Virus record (IMG/VR): IMGVR_UViG_2778261065_000012
DNA length: 11,506 bases
From: a virus
Taxonomy: Duplodnaviria; Heunggongvirae; Uroviricota; Caudoviricetes
Direction: 5' to 3' (one strand)
How positions within the stretch are numbered: the first letter of the stretch is position 1; every line of letters starts with the position of its first letter. A program made the translations under genes and the position numbers. The notes beneath the pieces were generated by a model. The model did not search any database, had not been told where the DNA came from, and worked only from the letters and a program-made list of their open reading frames with translations. This document shows positions 3,605-11,506 of the stretch, in pieces.

Positions 3605-3819
3605 TATTCACCTCTCGCAGCCTTGCGCTTATCTTCTTTAATCTTGAAATAAAGGTTTGTCAGGTACGTCAGCAGGCCAAATACCAGGCTACCCAGCACA
3701 CCTATTGCTGCCCACTGTGAGGGCGTGACTTTATCGAGCAGCTGTAAAAACCAGTAACCGGCACTACCTGCTGAGGTGCCATAGGCGACACCCGTTGTTA
3801 ACTTATCCATGGATTTCAT
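3604..3819 (-). CDS. essD: Pinholin, class II holin of the S21 type (71 aa, dual-start MKSM motif)
   Basis: [74 protein letters not shown] at 3819 preceded by gcgaggtgggg; a second in-frame Met at codon 4 gives the antiholin/holin dual start. The ORF-track start at 3864 is an upstream alternative codon. Confidence 0.88.
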
Positions 3820-4407: not shown

Positions 4408-5505
4408 ATGAAAAAATTAACAGTGGCAATTTCTGCTGTAGCTGCATCAGTACTGATGGCGATGTCTGCTCAGGCAGCTGAAATTTATAATAAAGACAGT
4501 AACAAGCTGGATCTGTACGGGAAAGTTAATGCCAAGCACTACTTTTCCTCTAACGATGCAGATGATGGTGATACTACTTATGTTCGTCTGGGCTTCAAAG
4601 GCGAAACCCAAATCAACGATCAGCTGACTGGTTTCGGTCAGTGGGAATATGAATTCAAAGGCAACCGCGCTGAATCTCAAGGTTCCTCCAAAGACAAAAC
4701 CCGTCTTGCATTTGCAGGCCTGAAATTCGGTGACTACGGCTCAATCGATTACGGCCGTAACTACGGTGTAGCATACGACATCGGTGCGTGGACTGACGTT
4801 CTGCCAGAATTCGGTGGCGATACCTGGACCCAAACAGATGTGTTCATGACTGGTCGCACCACTGGTGTTGCAACCTATCGTAACAACGACTTCTTTGGTC
4901 TGGTTGATGGTCTGAACTTTGCTGCTCAGTACCAAGGCAAAAACGATCGTAGCGATTTCGATAACTACACCGAAGGTAACGGTGATGGCTTCGGTTTCTC
5001 TGCTACCTATGAATACGAAGGGTTCGGTATCGGTGCAACTTATGCGAAATCTGATCGTACCGACACTCAAGTTAATGCAGGGAAAGTTCTTCCTGAAGTA
5101 TTTGCTTCCGGTAAAAATGCAGAAGTTTGGGCCGCAGGTCTGAAATATGACGCTAACAACATTTACCTGGCCACTACCTATTCTGAAACCCAGAATATGA
5201 CTGTATTTGCTGATCACTTCGTTGCTAATAAAGCTCAAAACTTCGAAGCTGTTGCACAATATCAGTTCGATTTCGGTCTGCGTCCGTCCGTTGCTTACCT
5301 GCAATCTAAAGGTAAGGATCTTGGAGTATGGGGCGATCAGGACTTAGTCAAATATGTTGATGTAGGTGCAACCTATTACTTCAACAAAAATATGTCTACT
5401 TTCGTTGATTACAAAATCAACCTGCTTGACAAAAATGACTTCACTAAAGCACTCGGTGTAAGCACTGATGACATCGTTGCTGTAGGTCTGGTTTACCAGT
5501 TCTAA
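4408..5505 (+). CDS. nmpC: Outer-membrane general porin, NmpC/Lc (OmpD-family), intact 365 aa
   Basis: [40 protein letters not shown]...VAVGLVYQF: signal peptide, porin motifs ([21 protein letters not shown]-terminal YQF) and high-GC codon usage typical of a highly expressed gene. Convergent with the lysis genes, as in DLP12/PA-2. Confidence 0.92.
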
Positions 5506-6950: not shown

Positions 6951-7103
6951 GATTCCTCCTTGCTGCCAGTCGCAACCATTTTTTATCAACCAGGCTAGCG
7001 GTATATCCGAGCAGTGTTGGTATTTCGGATGGCTTCGGCTCAGGCTTACGCTTACGACGATTTGATACTCTGTAGATGTGTCCGTTCATGACACGAATAA
7101 GCG
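6933..7103 (-). CDS. ninE: NinE (56 aa)
   Basis: Hand-translated: [65 protein letters not shown]; 3' end overlaps the ybcO start by 18 nt. Confidence 0.8.
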
Positions 7104-7112
7104 GTGTAGCCA

Positions 7113-7568
7113 TTACGCCTCCTGCTTGTCACGGAGCAGCTGGAACTCGCAGCTCTGCGGAATAGTCAGGTGGCAGCCAATATTCACCGCCCAGGCTTCA
7201 ACCTTACACAGGAAGACATACATCTCTCCGGTATCAAGATCGGAGGTATGGCGTAACGACTGGATAGTGGTGATATCACCGGTTACGACATCAACCAGGT
7301 CTTTGGTTTCATAACCGAGATATGTGTGTTTGAGAGCATCTTTTACCCAAGCTGGAGTGGCGAACGTTTTACCCCTGTTGATGAGGTATTCACTGATTTC
7401 GCTGTACCACATGTGGCTGAGTGCATTCTGGGAAAGACTGCGTTTCTCACGCCACGGTTTAAGCACCATGCGAAAGCATTTGCCCTCCTCCAGATAAGGC
7501 TGGATCTGCCGACCGATAGCGGTGAAGTTACCGCGATGTAATTTGATGCCATCTTGTGGGAGATTCAC
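7113..7568 (-). CDS. ybcN: NinB/Orf-family recombination protein (YbcN-like), 151 aa
   Basis: [62 protein letters not shown]... carries the KRSLSQN motif like lambda NinB (RSLDQN). GTG start with GGAGG upstream. Confidence 0.85.
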
Positions 7569-7666
7569 GCTTCACCTCCGCAGAGGTCAAACGCTGGATG
7601 CAAAAAATCGCAGGTGCATCTCTGCATCTGTGAAGGGAGAAGAGAGTTTGGATTGTATGTGCGCAT
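7565..7666 (-). CDS. ylcH: Small ORF (33 aa) translationally coupled to ybcN (YlcH-like)
   Basis: Hand-translated: [41 protein letters not shown] 6 nt upstream; its stop overlaps the ybcN GTG (GTGA). Confidence 0.45.
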
Positions 7667-7764
7667 AAACGTCCCCGTTTAGCGCAGAAGTCACCGGAGT
7701 TGTTCAGGCTCCGATGACATGATTATGGCAAAATGATTATGTAAAATCAAAAGCCAAAAAACAA

Positions 7765-8694
7765 TTATGGTTTATTTTCTAGCTCTGATTTTTTGAAAGC
7801 TTCTATCAGACGATTAGCATCTTCTGTACCACCAGGAAGCACGTTTGATTTTTTAAGAATATACGGTGGGAACTTTGTGGTTAAATATTCATGCTTAAAC
7901 CATCTACGAAACTCTGACAATGCAGAATCAGGATAGGCATTAATGATCTGAGGATTGGAACTTGCCTGAAGAAAATCTTCAGGGTAATAATGCTCACAGT
8001 CTACTCTTTCTCCAAATTCTGTTGCTAACCCCTTTGCTTTCCAGTGACGCGCCCAGCAAGAACCAACACTGCCATCAGGTACGGTATGCTGATTAATCGC
8101 TAATCCAGCATTGATGAGATCTACCATCATACCTGCAATTTCATTAAATATAATGAAATACCCATCAGGTATGGTTCCCTTATCTTTTAATAAAGATACT
8201 CTGTCATGGTAATGCCTCCACGGGTCCTCCGGTTGATATTTTAGCGCCTCGTATATAAATGTCTTGAGGCCTTTTTTAGCAAGCTCTCTGTAAGATCTAA
8301 TTGCAGTCTCACTTTCTGCTTGTTTTGCTTCAAAGGCATAGTATTCAAGTATAGCCATGCATACAACATCTGGATAAGCATGGTACTCAACACCATTTCG
8401 AATTATTGGTATATAAAGTTTTTCATCTGTAAAACCTTCATTAAGAAGATATGTACCAATAAAAGTCATTCTTCCTTTTTTGAAAATACCGTTCTCAACA
8501 GATTGAGCCCACTCATCGGTAATTTCCTTGATTCGCAAACGCTGAACACCACAAACATTTGCCAACCCATTCTGAGTAAGGTACGGAATTCCGTTATCGA
8601 GTACCCCCATTTCTATACCGTTAATGACAGCCTCTTGCTTAACATCTAAGTCTAAAGGTATGGATCTGAGGGAGGTAGTTCTCTGTTGTGCCAT
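7765..8694 (-). CDS. Hypothetical protein, 309 aa, AT-rich cargo gene of unknown function; possible Bro-N/KilA-N-like N-terminal domain
   Basis: Long open frame (MAQQRTTSLRSIPLDLDVKQEAVINGIEMGVLDNGIPYLTQNGLANVCGV...) with ATG at 8694 and AGGA 7 nt upstream; the ORF-track start at 8709 is TTG. GC is roughly 25-37% in sampled 60-nt blocks, against about 50-55% in the nin genes. No catalytic motif or TM segment recognised. The N-terminal pattern D-x-G-x-P-[YW]-[LF]-x4-[LV]-A-x-V-x-G resembles Bro-N/KilA-N domains. Confidence 0.75.
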   Translation of the reverse strand: MAQQRTTSLRSIPLDLDVKQEAVINGIEMGVLDNGIPYLTQNGLANVCGVQRLRIKEITDEWAQSVENGIFKKGRMTFIGTYLLNEGFTDEKLYIPIIRNGVEYHAYPDVVCMAILEYYAFEAKQAESETAIRSYRELAKKGLKTFIYEALKYQPEDPWRHYHDRVSLLKDKGTIPDGYFIIFNEIAGMMVDLINAGLAINQHTVPDGSVGSCWARHWKAKGLATEFGERVDCEHYYPEDFLQASSNPQIINAYPDSALSEFRRWFKHEYLTTKFPPYILKKSNVLPGGTEDANRLIEAFKKSELENKP

Positions 8695-8898
8695 TTTTGA
8701 TCCTATCAATTTGAATTCATTGAAAAAATTAGGTGTTCCCTATGCATTAGAACACTCATCATAGTAACCCCACTCGTTTGTGAAAAAAACTAATTTCACA
8801 ATCAGTTAACTCTCAAAATAACTGATATTCATACTCTCGCTATCCCATATATAGACATCCTTGTTTTAATACAACACTCATGGCTGGCGGCTATACTC

Positions 8899-9216
8899 CT
8901 AACAGATTTGACGCAAATACGGCAATACTCGACTCCACTTATCATCCTGCCACGGCTGAAGTTTTACATGTGCCGTTTCTCGGACGAGGATTGCTCGCGC
9001 TCTGTTGAGTATCTGGGGATATTCTTGCTCGATGGAAGTGAAGTGACCAGCTTCACCATGCTCCGCATCCTGAAGAAGATGAGTAACGTTCTGGTAGGCA
9101 ATTAACATCACATTCCCTGCTCGCCATAACCAGGCGAGTGTGCAAAGTTCGTTATCAGTGAATTGTTTTGTGATTGGGGATTGTTGAACTGCTAGAACGA
9201 GAACGCTAGCATCCAT
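8899..9216 (-). CDS. Hypothetical protein, 105 aa
   Basis: ORF MDASVLVLAVQQSPITKQFTDNELCTLAWLWRAGNVMLIAYQNVTHLLQDAEHGEAGHF...; ATG at 9216 with AGGGA 5 nt upstream. GC is near-normal (about 47% by eye), unlike its AT-rich neighbours. No homology recognised; could be a gene remnant. Confidence 0.45.
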   Translation of the reverse strand: MDASVLVLAVQQSPITKQFTDNELCTLAWLWRAGNVMLIAYQNVTHLLQDAEHGEAGHFTSIEQEYPQILNRARAILVRETAHVKLQPWQDDKWSRVLPYLRQIC

Positions 9217-9327
9217 TGGCAGTCCCTATAGTAAAACCATGGCTCAGGACGCTTCGTTCAGGATAGATAATTTTATTGTACTTACCTAACTTTCTTACTA
9301 TAGCACGGTTGAAAAAGTGATTATTAC

Positions 9328-10854
9328 TCAAAAATAAACCTCACCATCAACCATATATTTGAGAGTACTTATCGCCTGCTGGGCGGATATTGTTTTCATT
9401 AAAGGATAGTGTTTAAAAACAATGCCATTCATAAAATAGATATCACAGGTTTTATTATCTGTATTGATTATGATTTTTTCGAATGTTTTATAGGCAAGTG
9501 TACGACATAGCTCTCGCCCATTTTTACTGGTTAAGTCAATAGCATGAAAATCACCAAGTGAGCTCACCGCTTTACTCTTCAAAGTTTTTAATGATACAGA
9601 AGCCCTTCGTAATTCCTTATCTAATACTCTGATTTTTTCTGCTATAGCGGTAACTTCAGGCGCAACAGATAATGCAGCAATTAAATTATTAATTTTCATC
9701 TGGAGCTCAATAATTTTCAACTCTAAAGTTTCATTAGCATCTTTCTTGTTTTCAACTGGTTGGATTTTACTACAATTAAAAAGCAACTCATTAATGATAT
9801 TATAATCAACCAAATCTCTCTTTATTGATGGCCTGTCACATCGATGCAGTCTTCTCATCGGACAAACATAATAGCCATGCAAACTTCCAGATACCGCATG
9901 AACAATCATGGTATTACCACAAGCCTCGCACTTCATAACTGTTCGAAGTAGATTTATCAACATAGGATTTTTGCTACTATTGCTAATACCAAAAGGTGCC
10001 AACCGAATTTCCTGCACAGCGTAAAACAAATCATCTGATATGACTCTGGGATAATAGCCAGCGATTTCACTTATTCCTTTACCTCTTGCACGATATGAAG
10101 GTACGCATATACCTATCAGAGCTTTATTCGCTAATAATTTTTCAATTACAGAAGGTCCCCATGCACTTTCTTTTCCTGAGAAATTCTTTACAGCATGATC
10201 ATTTAAATACTTGGCTATTGCATTCAATGAGCGCCTTTCCATCCTGAGTTTAAAAATTAGCTCAATAGTTTTCACCCTGTCGGGGTCTGGAACAAAAGCC
10301 GTTCTTTTGTCATCTAAGGAGAGCCATCTCGGACAAGACGCCGTCATAATCGTGCCTGACTCCAGTGCATCCTGCCGTTTTTTCTTCCATGATAATTTAA
10401 CCCGACTTGACTTTATCTCGCTTTCTTCATTTGCCCTTTGTGCTATAAGTATGGCTTTTATTAATGAATATGGATCATTCAAAGAGTCAATATTATAGAC
10501 TGTATTATCGCAAAGAGTTATAACATCAATACCGTGATTCAAAATCAATTTCAGACGCTCAATCGCTTCACCGACTTTTTCTCTTGAAAGTCTGTCCAGA
10601 CTTTCAACTAACAATGTAGTTCCTGGCAATATATAACCATGCTCTATAGCATCTAAAAATTCCGAAAAAGCTCCTGATTGTGCATGCTTTCCTTTGAATG
10701 CACTTAATCCTAAATCTTCATATGTTATGGTATCAAGATAATAATCACTATTTACCTTTAACCATTCAGCAATAAGTCTTCTCTGTCGGTTTAATGAGTC
10801 GCCAGACATCTGACCTGGTGATGAAAATCGCATATATGCTATGGCTTTTTTCAT
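9328..10854 (-). CDS. ybcK: Large serine recombinase (508 aa; resolvase-type catalytic domain, recombinase domain, Cys4 zinc ribbon, coiled-coil)
   Basis: N-terminal AIAYMRFSSPGQ... has the serine-recombinase catalytic Ser motif; CEACGNTMIVH...YYVCPMRRLHRCDR is a Cys4 zinc ribbon; C-terminal region is heptad-like (LELKIIELQMKINNLIAAL). ATG at 10854 with AGGTG upstream. AT-rich (about 35-38% GC). Same size and position as DLP12 YbcK, next to emrE. Confidence 0.88.
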   Translation of the reverse strand: MKKAIAYMRFSSPGQMSGDSLNRQRRLIAEWLKVNSDYYLDTITYEDLGLSAFKGKHAQSGAFSEFLDAIEHGYILPGTTLLVESLDRLSREKVGEAIERLKLILNHGIDVITLCDNTVYNIDSLNDPYSLIKAILIAQRANEESEIKSSRVKLSWKKKRQDALESGTIMTASCPRWLSLDDKRTAFVPDPDRVKTIELIFKLRMERRSLNAIAKYLNDHAVKNFSGKESAWGPSVIEKLLANKALIGICVPSYRARGKGISEIAGYYPRVISDDLFYAVQEIRLAPFGISNSSKNPMLINLLRTVMKCEACGNTMIVHAVSGSLHGYYVCPMRRLHRCDRPSIKRDLVDYNIINELLFNCSKIQPVENKKDANETLELKIIELQMKINNLIAALSVAPEVTAIAEKIRVLDKELRRASVSLKTLKSKAVSSLGDFHAIDLTSKNGRELCRTLAYKTFEKIIINTDNKTCDIYFMNGIVFKHYPLMKTISAQQAISTLKYMVDGEVYF

Positions 10855-11053
10855 GGTGACACCTGCTAACGTATGCTTTTATAAACCTTAGTGGTGAGAT
10901 ATAATTTTTGTTTAATTTTTATTTAAAAAGACAATTAAGGTCACATTATCTTGAATATACAACAATAATCGTATTGCAATTTTCTTACGCCATAATCTTG
11001 AAAGCACAAAAGAATACATAAAAAAATAAAGACATTAACAAAAAGCATAAAAC

Positions 11054-11079
11054 GAGGCTCATATAAATATAAGAGCCTC
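11054..11079 (-). terminator. Candidate emrE terminator hairpin
   Basis: gaggctc-(12 nt)-gagcctc inverted repeat about 30 bp downstream of the emrE stop; on the minus strand it is followed by GTTTTATGCTTTT. The stem is short and the loop long, so this is weak to moderate. Confidence 0.4.
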
Positions 11080-11110
11080 CATATTTTAGTCGTTTAGAAA
11101 CAAATTATTT

Positions 11111-11443
11111 TTAATGTGGTGTGCTTCGTGACAATAAATTAATAACCAACACACCGGCACAAATCAACATCATGCCTATAATGGCTGGCAGGTCCAGCCG
11201 TTGGCCGAAAAATCCCCATGACAGTAAGCTAATCAGGACAATACCGACTCCTGACCAGATAGCATAAGCAATCCCTGTAGGAATATAAGCCAGCGTCTGA
11301 GCTAATAACCAGAATGATGCACAATAACAAATAATTGTACCAACAGATGGCCATAACCGTGTAAAACCTTCTGAAAACTTCATTAAGGTTGTACCAATGA
11401 CCTCTGCAAGTATTGCACCACCAAGATAAATATAAGGGTTCAT
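11111..11443 (-). CDS. emrE: EmrE small multidrug resistance (SMR) efflux transporter, 110 aa
   Basis: MNPYIYLGGAILAEVIGTTLMKFSEGFTRLWPSVGTIICYCASFWLLAQTLAYIPTGIAYAIWSGVGIVLISLLSWGFFGQRLDLPAIIGMMLICAGVLVINLLSRSTPH is recognised as EmrE, including the conserved membrane Glu in EVIGTT. ATG at 11443; the ORF-track start is an upstream alternative. Confidence 0.93.
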   Translation of the reverse strand: MNPYIYLGGAILAEVIGTTLMKFSEGFTRLWPSVGTIICYCASFWLLAQTLAYIPTGIAYAIWSGVGIVLISLLSWGFFGQRLDLPAIIGMMLICAGVLVINLLSRSTPH

Positions 11444-11506
11444 AGTAGACTGGCCCCCTGAATCTCCAGACAACCAGTATCACTTAAATAAGTGATAGTC
11501 TTAATA

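What the first reader, a model, noticed from the sequence alone, without database searches (positions are those of the whole stretch)
9328..10854. Large serine recombinase inside a lambdoid prophage that has no immunity or replication genes in this window
Lambdoid prophages normally integrate with a tyrosine integrase. A 508-aa serine recombinase (catalytic Ser motif, zinc ribbon, coiled-coil) sitting between emrE and the cargo genes is therefore unexpected for phage integration. It may belong to a separate integrative cassette that inserted into the prophage carrying emrE and the AT-rich cargo, or act as a site-specific invertase or excisionase on nearby DNA. The whole 7700-11100 interval is AT-rich, consistent with an inserted island that would be a typical H-NS-silenced target.
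Basis: partly seen in the sequence, partly recalled or inferred. Interest (0 to 1): 0.5.

Follow-up and report, generated by a model that had tools for sequence, protein, structure and literature searches.

The report
ybcK: known prophage serine recombinase gene
The ORF is ybcK, the long-annotated but never characterised large serine recombinase of DLP12-type lambda-like prophages: an intact, strongly conserved passenger gene in a cargo slot of the phage, not the enzyme that integrates the prophage, and with no detectable rearrangement of nearby DNA.

Summary
In detail: window 9328-10854 (minus strand) encodes a 508-aa large serine recombinase. It has the resolvase, recombinase and zinc-ribbon domains, the catalytic Ser11/Arg9, and a predicted coiled coil.

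It is ybcK of prophage DLP12 (about 98% identical to the K-12 protein). It occurs in 1424 of 5426 complete E. coli genomes and in viable phages such as Perceval, 4A7 and Turner.

It is not the prophage integrase. Carrier prophages sit at argU, icd or ybhC, each with its own tyrosine integrase.

Comparative genomics defines a discrete block of about 2.35 kb at 36% GC: emrE, ylcJ, ybcK and about 130 nt of 3' flank. The block lies in the accessory slot between ren and ylcH/ybcN, and its right junction truncates a rha gene. Sister phages carry PD-lambda-1, a TIR protein or small ORFs there instead.

The AT-rich "cargo" is a separate, independently swapping cassette. Here it is the BstA abortive-infection gene.

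ybcK is under strong purifying selection (dN/dS about 0.075; 82 of 83 copies intact). Yet it is always co-linear, with no inversions and no att-like repeats. Homologues at 50-60% identity mostly sit at the end of a prophage tail module (one beside ssrA) or in other lambdoid nin regions.

Most likely it is a captured integration gene whose present substrate is unknown. The gene is already known, and interest is modest.

The parts
9328..10854 (-). ybcK, a 508-aa large serine recombinase (catalytic domain, alpha-E helix, recombinase domain, zinc ribbon with coiled coil, small C-terminal domain)
   Evidence: ORF; Pfam hits; conserved residues; structural model and fold matches; 97.3% nucleotide identity to the K-12 emrE-ybcK segment (b0544), with 11 amino-acid differences from K-12 YbcK
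9190..9327 (-). Block-specific 3' flank of ybcK (about 125-139 nt). It contains a 9-bp inverted repeat, CTATAGTAA (9226-9234) and TTACTATAG (9295-9303). The K-12-type and O157-type rearrangement junctions fall about 78 and 67 nt after the stop codon (window ~9250 and ~9261)
   Evidence: Alignments; repeat coordinates; homology to rha of phage PhiR26_1 begins at window 9189-9203
10855..11110 (-). emrE-ybcK spacer at 26.6% GC. It holds the emrE terminator hairpin (11054-11079) and a frameshifted ylcJ-like small ORF (~10912-11062). In K-12 this untranslated leader contains a Rho/NusG-dependent terminator that silences ybcK
   Evidence: Sequence; hairpin; ylcJ annotation in relatives; GC; Rho terminator t_ybcK in PMC4150792
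11111..11443 (-). emrE (SMR multidrug efflux pump), the constant upstream partner of ybcK in the same block
   Evidence: Pfam Multi_Drug_Res 2.8e-35; directly upstream of ybcK in every locus with enough sequence
11446..11506 (.). End of an IS3-family (IS2-like) insertion sequence that abuts the emrE start codon. It replaces the ren-emrE spacer seen in relatives, and homology to nearly all relatives stops at 11445
   Evidence: the hits with '100% coverage' are explained by IS copies elsewhere in those genomes
8899..9216 (-). 105-aa ORF with a P22AR_C domain. It is the 3' remnant of a rha (Rha/antirepressor-type) gene whose 5' half was displaced by the ybcK block; the first ~9 codons are block-derived
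   Evidence: Pfam P22_AR_C 7.6e-14; PHROG matches to the C-terminal ends of Ant proteins; a full-length 202-aa Rha in the ybcK-less phage PhiR26_1 aligns from its codon ~100 onwards
7765..8709 (-). bstA, a full-length BstA abortive-infection anti-phage gene (RefSeq start at 8694). It is the variable cargo cassette of this particular phage and is not part of the ybcK block
   Evidence: PADLOC BstA 3.8e-121 covering 5-291 of 292; phrog_6287 1.9e-136; replaced by at least 8 other cassettes behind the same ybcK
7568..7751 (-). Conserved right boundary of the accessory slot. It contains an 18-bp palindrome TTGATTTTACATAATCAT (7733-7750) that overlaps a promoter-like TTGATT-17-CATAAT (7722-7750), then the hairpin GTCATCGGAG-N9-CTCCGGTGAC (7690-7718), then ylcH (7565-7666)
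   Evidence: The breakpoint at 7751 is shared by all cargo classes and by ybcK-less prophages; promoter scan; coordinates

Best explanation
The ORF is ybcK, the annotated but functionally uncharacterised large serine recombinase of DLP12-type lambdoid phages.

Shown. It is one gene of a discrete low-GC block of about 2.35 kb: a variant ren 3' tail, emrE, ylcJ, ybcK and about 130 nt of 3' flank. The block occupies the accessory-gene slot of the early-right operon between ren and ylcH/ybcN (the position of tR2 between ren and ninB in lambda). Its right junction cuts a rha gene at about codon 100. Downstream of that rha remnant lies an independently exchanged one- or two-gene cassette, here the BstA defence gene, which ends at a conserved boundary element. 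The carrier phages integrate with their own tyrosine integrases, so YbcK is not their integrase. The protein is intact and under strong purifying selection. No inversion, excision scar or alternative junction attributable to it is visible.

Inferred. The block is a captured piece of another element's serine-integrase module. In that element the recombinase catalysed attP x attB integration through the usual Ser-linked double-strand cleavage and 180-degree subunit rotation. This fits relatives that still sit at the end of a prophage tail module, one of them beside ssrA. The block entered a lambdoid ancestor once and has since spread by homologous exchange of the flanks among lambdoid phages. 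YbcK probably remains a working site-specific recombinase that is normally silenced in lysogens by Rho-dependent termination. Its present substrate lies elsewhere (in trans) or is used too rarely to leave a trace in genomes.
For: Identity and domains. Prevalence and viable phages: 1424 of 5426 complete E. coli genomes; phages Perceval, 4A7, Lambda_4C10, Turner, D2, 1W, 3W and the PhiR series. Not the integrase: carrier prophages at argU with IntD, at icd with Int/Xis and at ybhC with a lambda-type Int; ybcK is always internal. Block boundaries. Sister phages with PD-lambda-1, a TIR protein or small ORFs between the same flanks. Composition: block 36.0% GC, rha remnant 47.1%, bstA 38.7%. Constant co-linearity: ren-68 bp-emrE in 75 of 76 loci. 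No inverted HSPs in 90 loci. Selection: 82 of 83 copies intact, 49 distinct DNA alleles, median dN/dS 0.075 with dS up to 0.19. Relatives at 52-60% identity at the end of a prophage tail module: 540 nt from the 3' end of ssrA in Atlantibacter, next to lepA in Erwinia, and between two prophages in Yersinia. Silencing by a Rho/NusG-dependent terminator in the ybcK leader in K-12: PMC4150792. No functional study was found.
Against: Strong purifying selection over a dS of ~0.19 is hard to reconcile with a mere passenger and argues for a current function that I could not identify. No att site could be defined. No unoccupied ren-ylcH slot exists in 5426 genomes, so the 'captured once' scenario rests on shared junctions, not on an attB/attP reconstruction. 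Homologues at 60-61% identity also sit inside the nin region of other lambdoid phages, next to DinI and DUF1367. Residence in the nin region may therefore be a recurrent, selected arrangement and not an accident. The integrase role of the relatives at prophage ends is inferred from position only.
Confidence: 0.6

Rival explanations
1. The emrE-ylcJ-ybcK block is a still-active mini integrative element. YbcK excises it as a circle and re-inserts it site-specifically into the ren/rha region of lambdoid phages.
For: The block has discrete boundaries and low GC, and sister phages lack it. The recombinase is under purifying selection. The family includes end-of-element integrases. Two independent rearrangement junctions (K-12 type and O157 type) fall 11 nt apart, 67-78 nt after the ybcK stop, as a crossover site might. 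In another lambdoid phage, a 60%-identical recombinase lies in a 2.98-kb segment flanked by 181-bp direct repeats of the target gene's 5' end.
Against: The junctions are identical in all carriers examined, which fits one ancestral event followed by homologous spread. The block was seen nowhere else in any locus examined, and carrier genomes have a median of one copy. No empty site exists. Recombinase-free cassettes occupy the same slot with the same outer boundaries. No dyad or att-like similarity links the two ends. The 181-bp repeats in L025 are only 86% identical, and a related phage has the same genes without the duplication, which fits phage-phage recombination.
Confidence: 0.15
2. YbcK gives the lysogen or the phage a trans-acting benefit, for example by recombining or cutting DNA of competing phages or mobile elements, or by rearranging a distant chromosomal locus. 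This would resemble the small serine recombinases PinQ/PinR of cryptic prophages, which were recently linked to phage resistance.
For: Strong purifying selection without any cis substrate. The gene lies in a slot otherwise filled with defence genes: BstA, PD-lambda-1 and a TIR protein. There is a precedent for prophage serine recombinases acting in defence (PMC12529663).
Against: There is no hit to any PADLOC defence model. There is no experimental hint. Co-location with defence cargo is explained by the slot itself, which is variable with or without ybcK.
Confidence: 0.12
3. YbcK is a second integrase that lets the phage lysogenise at an alternative attB when the tyrosine-integrase site is unavailable.
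For: The family consists of integrases, and the gene is intact in viable phages.
Against: In about 100 inspected contexts ybcK is always internal, flanked by emrE and the rha remnant or cargo. No prophage is permuted at a site next to ybcK.
Confidence: 0.06
4. YbcK is an invertase or excisionase switching the adjacent cargo, or it drives the cassette exchange downstream of it in an integron-like way.
For: A hypervariable cassette lies just downstream, with at least 9 classes in 80 loci.
Against: No minus-strand HSPs were found in 90 loci. No flanking inverted or direct repeats beyond chance were found. The same kind of cassette turnover, with the same right boundary, occurs in ybcK-less phages, and one cassette (ORF169) is shared by both. 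The protein is a 508-aa integrase-type enzyme, not a ~190-aa invertase.
Confidence: 0.04
5. ybcK is a decaying relic with no function.
For: It sits in cryptic prophages such as DLP12 and is silenced by Rho. Occasional IS insertions, deletions and stop codons occur.
Against: dN/dS is about 0.075. 82 of 83 copies are intact. The catalytic residues are intact in the window copy and in the five commonest alleles, and the gene is present in viable phages.
Confidence: 0.03

Closest known systems
YbcK (b0544, UniProt P77698), 'putative recombinase' of cryptic prophage DLP12 of E. coli K-12
   Same: It is the same gene: 97.3% nucleotide identity over the emrE-ybcK segment, 11 amino-acid differences, and the same emrE-ylcJ-ybcK order upstream of ylcH-ybcN-ninE-ybcO-rusA.
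   Different: K-12 has ybcL and ybcM downstream instead of the rha remnant and bstA. Its ren is split by IS3 and its immunity and replication genes are deleted. In K-12 nmpC is broken by IS5, whereas the porin gene is intact here.
Phage serine integrases (SPbeta SprA, PhiC31 Int, Bxb1 Int, Listeria A118/LI Int)
   Same: The multi-domain architecture, catalytic residues, zinc ribbon and coiled coil are the same. The family profile hits SprA at 3.7e-21, and the fold matches are full-length.
   Different: Those enzymes sit next to attP and are the sole integrase of their phage. ybcK is internal to phages that use tyrosine integrases. It has no identified att site or directionality factor, and it has an extra ~65-residue C-terminal domain.
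YbcK-family recombinases of other Enterobacterales (50-61% identity: Atlantibacter, Yersinia, Erwinia, Kluyvera, Pantoea, Citrobacter)
   Same: They form one clear family with similar lengths (502-522 aa).
   Different: Most sit at the end of a prophage tail module: one is 540 nt from ssrA, one is next to lepA, and one lies between two prophages. Others are on plasmids or ICE-like DNA. Only some are in lambdoid nin regions, at another position (next to DinI/DUF1367) and without emrE.
Large serine recombinases of small mobile cassettes (CcrAB of SCCmec, TnpX of Tn4451, TndX of Tn5397) - comparison from general knowledge
   Same: In each case a large serine recombinase is linked to a resistance or accessory gene in a small low-GC unit.
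   Different: Those elements are found at many sites or as circles with defined ends. The ybcK block was found at a single junction pair only, and no circular form is known.
Small serine invertases of cryptic prophages (Pin of e14, PinQ, PinR)
   Same: They are serine recombinases carried by E. coli prophages that are not needed for integration.
   Different: They are ~190 aa with a C-terminal HTH, flanked by inverted crossover sites around an invertible tail-fibre segment. ybcK has none of these features (PMC12529663).

Membership tests
Large serine recombinase (serine integrase) family | N-terminal resolvase-type catalytic domain with a Ser nucleophile and conserved Arg residues | tested here: met
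   PF00239 at 69.2 bits against a 23.3 cut-off. R9, S11, Q15, D87, R88 and R91 are invariant in 24 family members.
Large serine recombinase (serine integrase) family | Recombinase domain followed by a Cys4 zinc-ribbon domain | tested here: met
   PF07508 at 53.9 bits and PF13408 at 32.9 bits, both above their cut-offs. C309, C312, C331 and C339 are at least 90% conserved. A beta ribbon at 307-330 appears in the model.
Large serine recombinase (serine integrase) family | Coiled-coil motif emerging from the zinc-ribbon domain | tested here: met
   Helices 369-397 and 401-430 form a hairpin in the AlphaFold model. Full-length Foldseek matches to SprA, PhiC31 and Bxb1 integrases. This is a prediction only.
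Large serine recombinase (serine integrase) family | Gene lies next to the att site at the boundary of the element it mobilises | tested here: not met
   The gene is internal in all argU, icd and ybhC prophages and in the viable phages examined, and it is never at a junction. The feature appears to hold for relatives, judging from the positions of L020 and L026.
Large serine recombinase (serine integrase) family | Catalyses attP x attB recombination | not testable with these tools
   No att site was identified and no experiment was found in the literature searched.
YbcK of DLP12 (orthologue) | Near-identical sequence and conserved synteny emrE-ylcJ-ybcK ... ylcH-ybcN | tested here: met
   RefSeq names the gene ybcK in the matching genomes.
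Prophage integrase of this prophage | It is the only integrase, or lies adjacent to the prophage-host junction | tested here: not met
   IntD lies next to tRNA-Arg in close relatives. Other carrier prophages have Int/Xis at icd or Int at ybhC.
DNA invertase / invertible-segment switch | Small (~190 aa) recombinase, inverted crossover sites, and both orientations present in populations | tested here: not met
   The protein is 508 aa. Only short inverted repeats (27 nt or less, none flanking the block) were found. No inverted HSPs in 90 loci.
Autonomous integrative cassette (SCC- or Tn4451-like) | Found at several target sites, or with an empty site and a circular junction | tested here: not met
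   A single junction pair in all carriers. No empty slot in 5426 genomes. Circular forms cannot be tested with these tools.
BstA abortive-infection defence (the neighbouring cargo gene) | Full-length match to the BstA family (KilA-N-like N-terminal domain plus BstA C-terminal domain), carried by a prophage | tested here: met
   PADLOC BstA 3.8e-121 covering 5-291 of 292. PF26567 BstA_C in relatives. phrog_6287. The cognate aba immunity element was not examined.

The most novel reading that the evidence does not exclude
YbcK may be an active, trans- or rarely cis-acting serine integrase that lambdoid phages keep for their own benefit. One version: it captures or exchanges accessory and defence genes at a crossover site about 70-80 nt downstream of its stop codon. 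That is where the K-12-type (ybcL-ybcM) and O157-type junctions fall 11 nt apart, and where a diverged copy of the flank accompanies ybcL-ybcM. Another version: it recombines competitor DNA. Either would be a serine-recombinase-based gene-capture or competition function inside a phage that integrates by a tyrosine recombinase.
Probability: 0.1. Interest if true: 0.7.

Novelty: already known. Interest (0 to 1): 0.3.

Why it matters
The gene itself is not new. It has been annotated in E. coli K-12 since the genome was sequenced, and phage Perceval's record already calls it a large serine recombinase.

Three points are worth keeping. First, about a quarter of complete E. coli genomes carry an intact, strongly constrained serine integrase for which no paper in the library searched reports a substrate or function. 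That is a cheap and well-posed experimental question, and a native E. coli serine integrase with unknown att sites could interest genome-engineering work. Second, the ren-ylcH/ybcN junction of these phages is a nested, hypervariable cargo slot holding BstA, PD-lambda-1, a TIR protein, EmrE and several orphan genes. It may be a useful place to look for new defence genes. Third, the apparent 'AT-rich island' is composite, so it should not be annotated as a single integrative element.

Tried and rejected
1. Repeat search around the block. It found only short matches and nothing flanking the block. A 12-nt inverted match between 7718-7729 and 10989-11000 was judged to be chance.

2. Search for an empty ren-ylcH site to reconstruct attB. 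There was none within ~765 bp in 5426 genomes. Lambda has only tR2 there, but with a different downstream gene.

3. Alignment of the recombinase upstream regions across homologues to find a shared att or P-arm. A ~70-nt conserved leader is shared by L020, L025 and L030 but not by ybcK.

4. The 181-bp direct repeats around the L025 recombinase segment looked like an integration signature. They are only 86% identical, and L033 carries the same genes without the duplication, so phage-phage recombination explains them equally well.

5. PADLOC and Pfam scans of six alternative cargo ORFs gave no hits.

6. A single-sequence search of the PDB found nothing. A family profile was needed.

7. An Rfam scan of the window gave nothing credible.

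8. The records with '100% coverage' of the window (H1-H3, H31) owe their match to the last 61 nt to IS copies elsewhere in those genomes, not to the same arrangement. The exact source strain is not among the complete genomes.

9. One look-up (P0030) was not on record.

10. Literature searches for ybcK, for DLP12 with 'serine recombinase', and for lambdoid large serine recombinases found no functional study.
Full report
**1. What is there**

Window 9328-10854 (minus strand) is an uninterrupted 508-codon ORF. It matches the three Pfam domains that define large serine recombinases, all above the curated thresholds: Resolvase 4-161, Recombinase 191-284 and Zn_ribbon_recom 302-357.

In an alignment with 23 homologues of 28-62% identity, R9, S11, Q15, D87, R88 and R91 are invariant. 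The four zinc-ribbon cysteines are nearly invariant.

A family profile finds the SPbeta integrase SprA (3.7e-21) and PhiC31 integrase among solved structures. An AlphaFold model (mean pLDDT 82) shows a catalytic domain, a long alpha-E helix, a recombinase domain, a zinc ribbon, a two-helix coiled coil and a small extra C-terminal domain. Its best fold matches are full-length serine integrases.

**2. Identity**

The window is a DLP12-type lambdoid prophage. The minus-strand order is emrE, ylcJ-like, this ORF, a 105-aa ORF, a 314-aa ORF, ylcH, ybcN, ninE, ybcO, rusA, ylcG, Q. These are followed by the porin gene (plus strand), the lysis genes, a bor/iss-like ORF and nohD.

- The emrE-ybcK segment is 97.3% identical in DNA to that of E. 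coli K-12, and the protein differs from K-12 YbcK (b0544) at 11 residues. RefSeq names it ybcK in the matching genomes.
- ybcK occurs in 1424 of 5426 complete E. coli genomes, with a median of one copy.
- It also occurs in viable temperate phages: Perceval of strain LF82, 4A7, Lambda_4C10, Turner, D2, 1W, 3W and several PhiR phages. Perceval's record already labels it 'Large serine recombinase, DLP12 YbcK homolog'.
- In the literature held, YbcK appears only as an uncharacterised protein with the CisA-like three-domain layout (PMC6637259), and as a gene silenced by a Rho/NusG-dependent terminator in its leader (PMC4150792). No functional study was found.

**3. It is not the prophage integrase**

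In close relatives the complete prophage runs from the tRNA-Arg gene and intD, through exo/bet/gam, the repressor and cro, O, P and ren, to emrE-ybcK and on to the late genes.

The same emrE-ybcK block also sits in an O157:H7 prophage integrated at icd with its own Int/Xis. It also sits in a prophage remnant next to ybhC with a lambda-type integrase.

The absence of immunity and replication genes from the window is an edge effect. Homology to relatives stops at 11445, where an IS3-family end abuts the emrE start codon. In relatives, ren, P and O follow directly.

**4. Boundaries**

Comparison with prophages that share the flanks but lack emrE and ybcK shows divergence starting in the last ~10 codons of ren. 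Divergence ends at window 7751. That interval is a general cargo slot. Other occupants are two small ORFs, a TIR-domain protein, or PD-lambda-1 plus rha plus ORF169. Lambda has only tR2 there. No genome among 5426 has the slot empty.

Within the slot the ybcK unit is smaller. Phage PhiR26_1 lacks ybcK and carries a full-length 202-aa Rha protein. From about its codon 100 onward, that gene aligns with the 105-aa ORF downstream of ybcK. Homology begins at window 9189-9203, which is 125-139 nt after the ybcK stop.

The unit is therefore ren tail, 68-bp spacer, emrE, ylcJ, ybcK and 3' flank, about 2.35 kb in all. Its right junction truncates rha.

GC content supports a composite structure: the block is 36.0%, the rha remnant 47.1%, bstA 38.7% and ybcN-Q 48.6%.

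**5. The cargo**

In 80 IMG/VR loci with ybcK at 98-100% protein identity, the distance from ybcK to ybcN falls into 13 size classes. After IS insertions are removed, these reduce to at least 9 cargo types.

- Most types keep the rha remnant and then carry one unrelated gene: BstA in this window, or ORF83, ORF169, ORF118, ORF260, or ORF90 plus ORF105.
- The Perceval type has a secreted alpha/beta hydrolase.
- The K-12 type has ybcL and ybcM.
- The 314-aa ORF here is a full-length BstA abortive-infection protein (PADLOC 3.8e-121; PMC8585504).
- The ORF169 cassette occurs at 95% identity behind rha in the ybcK-less PhiR26_1. Cassette turnover is therefore independent of ybcK.

All variants end at the same ~183-bp element. 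It contains an 18-bp palindrome overlapping a promoter-like TTGATT-17-CATAAT, then a 10-bp-stem hairpin, then ylcH.

**6. Is the recombinase doing anything visible?**

- emrE follows a 303-bp ren by exactly 68 bp in 75 of 76 loci, and it always precedes ybcK.
- BLAST of window 7000-11445 against 90 loci gives no minus-strand HSP, so there are no inversions.
- The repeat search finds nothing that flanks the block.
- Yet 82 of 83 copies are intact. Among 49 distinct DNA alleles the median dN/dS is 0.075, with dS up to 0.19. Differences are concentrated in nt 1000-1400, the coiled-coil region.

The protein is being maintained, not decaying.

**7. Relatives**

Homologues of 40-61% identity are confined to Enterobacterales.

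- The Atlantibacter one (60%) is the last gene after a prophage tail module, 540 nt from the 3' end of ssrA.
- The Erwinia one lies between tail-fibre genes and lepA.
- The Yersinia one lies between two prophages.
- Pantoea and Duffyella ones are on plasmids.
- A Citrobacter one lies beside a shufflon-like gene.
- Two metagenomic ones (60-61%) lie inside the nin region of other lambdoid phages, next to DinI and DUF1367. In one of these, a 2.98-kb segment is flanked by 181-bp repeats that are 86% identical. This can be explained by recombination with a phage like L033.

**8. Interpretation**

The best-supported reading is that ybcK came from the integration module of another element. It was captured, together with emrE, into the cargo slot of a lambdoid ancestor in a single event that cut rha. 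It then spread among lambdoid phages by homologous exchange of the conserved flanks.

This explains the single junction pair, the low GC, the sister phages without the block, and the end-of-prophage positions of several relatives.

It does not explain the strong purifying selection, which implies a current function. I could only narrow that function down. It is not prophage integration at the known sites, not local inversion, and not the driver of downstream cassette exchange.

One weak lead remains. The K-12-type and O157-type rearrangements break 78 and 67 nt after the stop codon. K-12's ybcL-ybcM segment is preceded by a diverged (~60-65% identical, estimated by eye from the alignment) copy of that flank. 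A functional site may lie there.

**9. Verdict**

It is partly wrong: there is not one island, there is no evidence of invertase or excisionase action, and the gene is not novel. It is the known ybcK. Its unknown substrate is a legitimate small open question but not a surprising discovery.

Noticed in passing
window 11446-11506: The window ends in the terminal ~61 nt of an IS3-family (IS2-like) element inserted 2-3 nt upstream of the emrE ATG. It replaces the ren-emrE spacer and the emrE ribosome-binding region seen in all relatives. It could alter emrE expression, and it hides whether ren and the replication and immunity genes are still present in this strain.
   Followed up: partly
window 7690-7750 (also L006-L009, L119, all cargo classes): A conserved boundary element lies upstream of ylcH-ybcN. 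It has an 18-bp palindrome (TTGATTTTnnATAATCAA consensus) overlapping a promoter-like TTGATT-17-CATAAT, then a hairpin GTCAYCGGAG-N9-CTCCGGTGAC. Variants of the hairpin mostly keep pairing through G-U on the transcribed strand. Phage PhiR26_1 carries a partial second copy, matching the ylcH part (window 7583-7686), upstream of rha (L119 ~3634-3803), as if the element acts as a linker for cassette exchange. There is no Rfam match.
   Followed up: partly
window 7765-8709: The 314-aa ORF is a full-length BstA abortive-infection defence gene. The window's exact YbcK allele is linked to rha-remnant plus BstA in 10 different prophage backgrounds. The cognate aba self-immunity element was not looked for.
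   Followed up: partly
L001 18461-18493 (ren-emrE spacer of relatives; replaced by the IS in the window): A perfect 9-bp dyad, TTCAAACTG-N15-CAGTTTGAA, lies at the left inner end of the emrE-ybcK block. It is not terminator-like (no T run). It could be a protein-binding or recombination site.
   Followed up: no
window 9226-9234 and 9295-9303: A 9-bp perfect inverted repeat (CTATAGTAA / TTACTATAG, 60 nt apart) lies in the conserved 3' flank of ybcK. It brackets the positions where the K-12-type (+78) and O157-type (+67) rearrangement junctions fall.
   Followed up: partly
window 9450-9850 (ybcK nt ~1000-1400): Differences between ybcK alleles are concentrated in the coiled-coil-encoding third of the gene (13-15 mismatches in one 100-nt bin, against 0-2 in the 5' half). 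This suggests mosaic alleles or diversification of the coiled-coil tip.
   Followed up: no
L025 7671-7851 and 10651-10831: In an unrelated lambdoid phage from a metagenome, a 60%-identical recombinase plus KGG, DinI and a small ORF form a 2.98-kb segment. The segment is flanked by 181-bp direct repeats (86% identical) of the 5' end of a DUF1367 nin gene.
   Followed up: partly
L028 6145-9530: A Citrobacter koseri homologue (50% identity) is divergently adjacent to a 555-aa protein with a faint Shufflon_N match, in a TraD/MobA region. This may be a serine-recombinase-driven shufflon-like locus.
   Followed up: no
L119 1889-3391; L008 2554-3366: The same ren-ylcH slot carries PD-lambda-1 in phage PhiR26_1 and a TIR-domain protein in strain EH10-18-47. 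Six further cargo ORFs (83-260 aa) have no Pfam or PADLOC match. The slot looks like a defence and moron hotspot with uncharacterised occupants.
   Followed up: partly
window 4408-5505 and 2276-2617: The nmpC-type porin gene is intact here (365 aa), whereas it is disrupted by IS5 in K-12. A Bor/Iss-type lipoprotein ORF is present.
   Followed up: no
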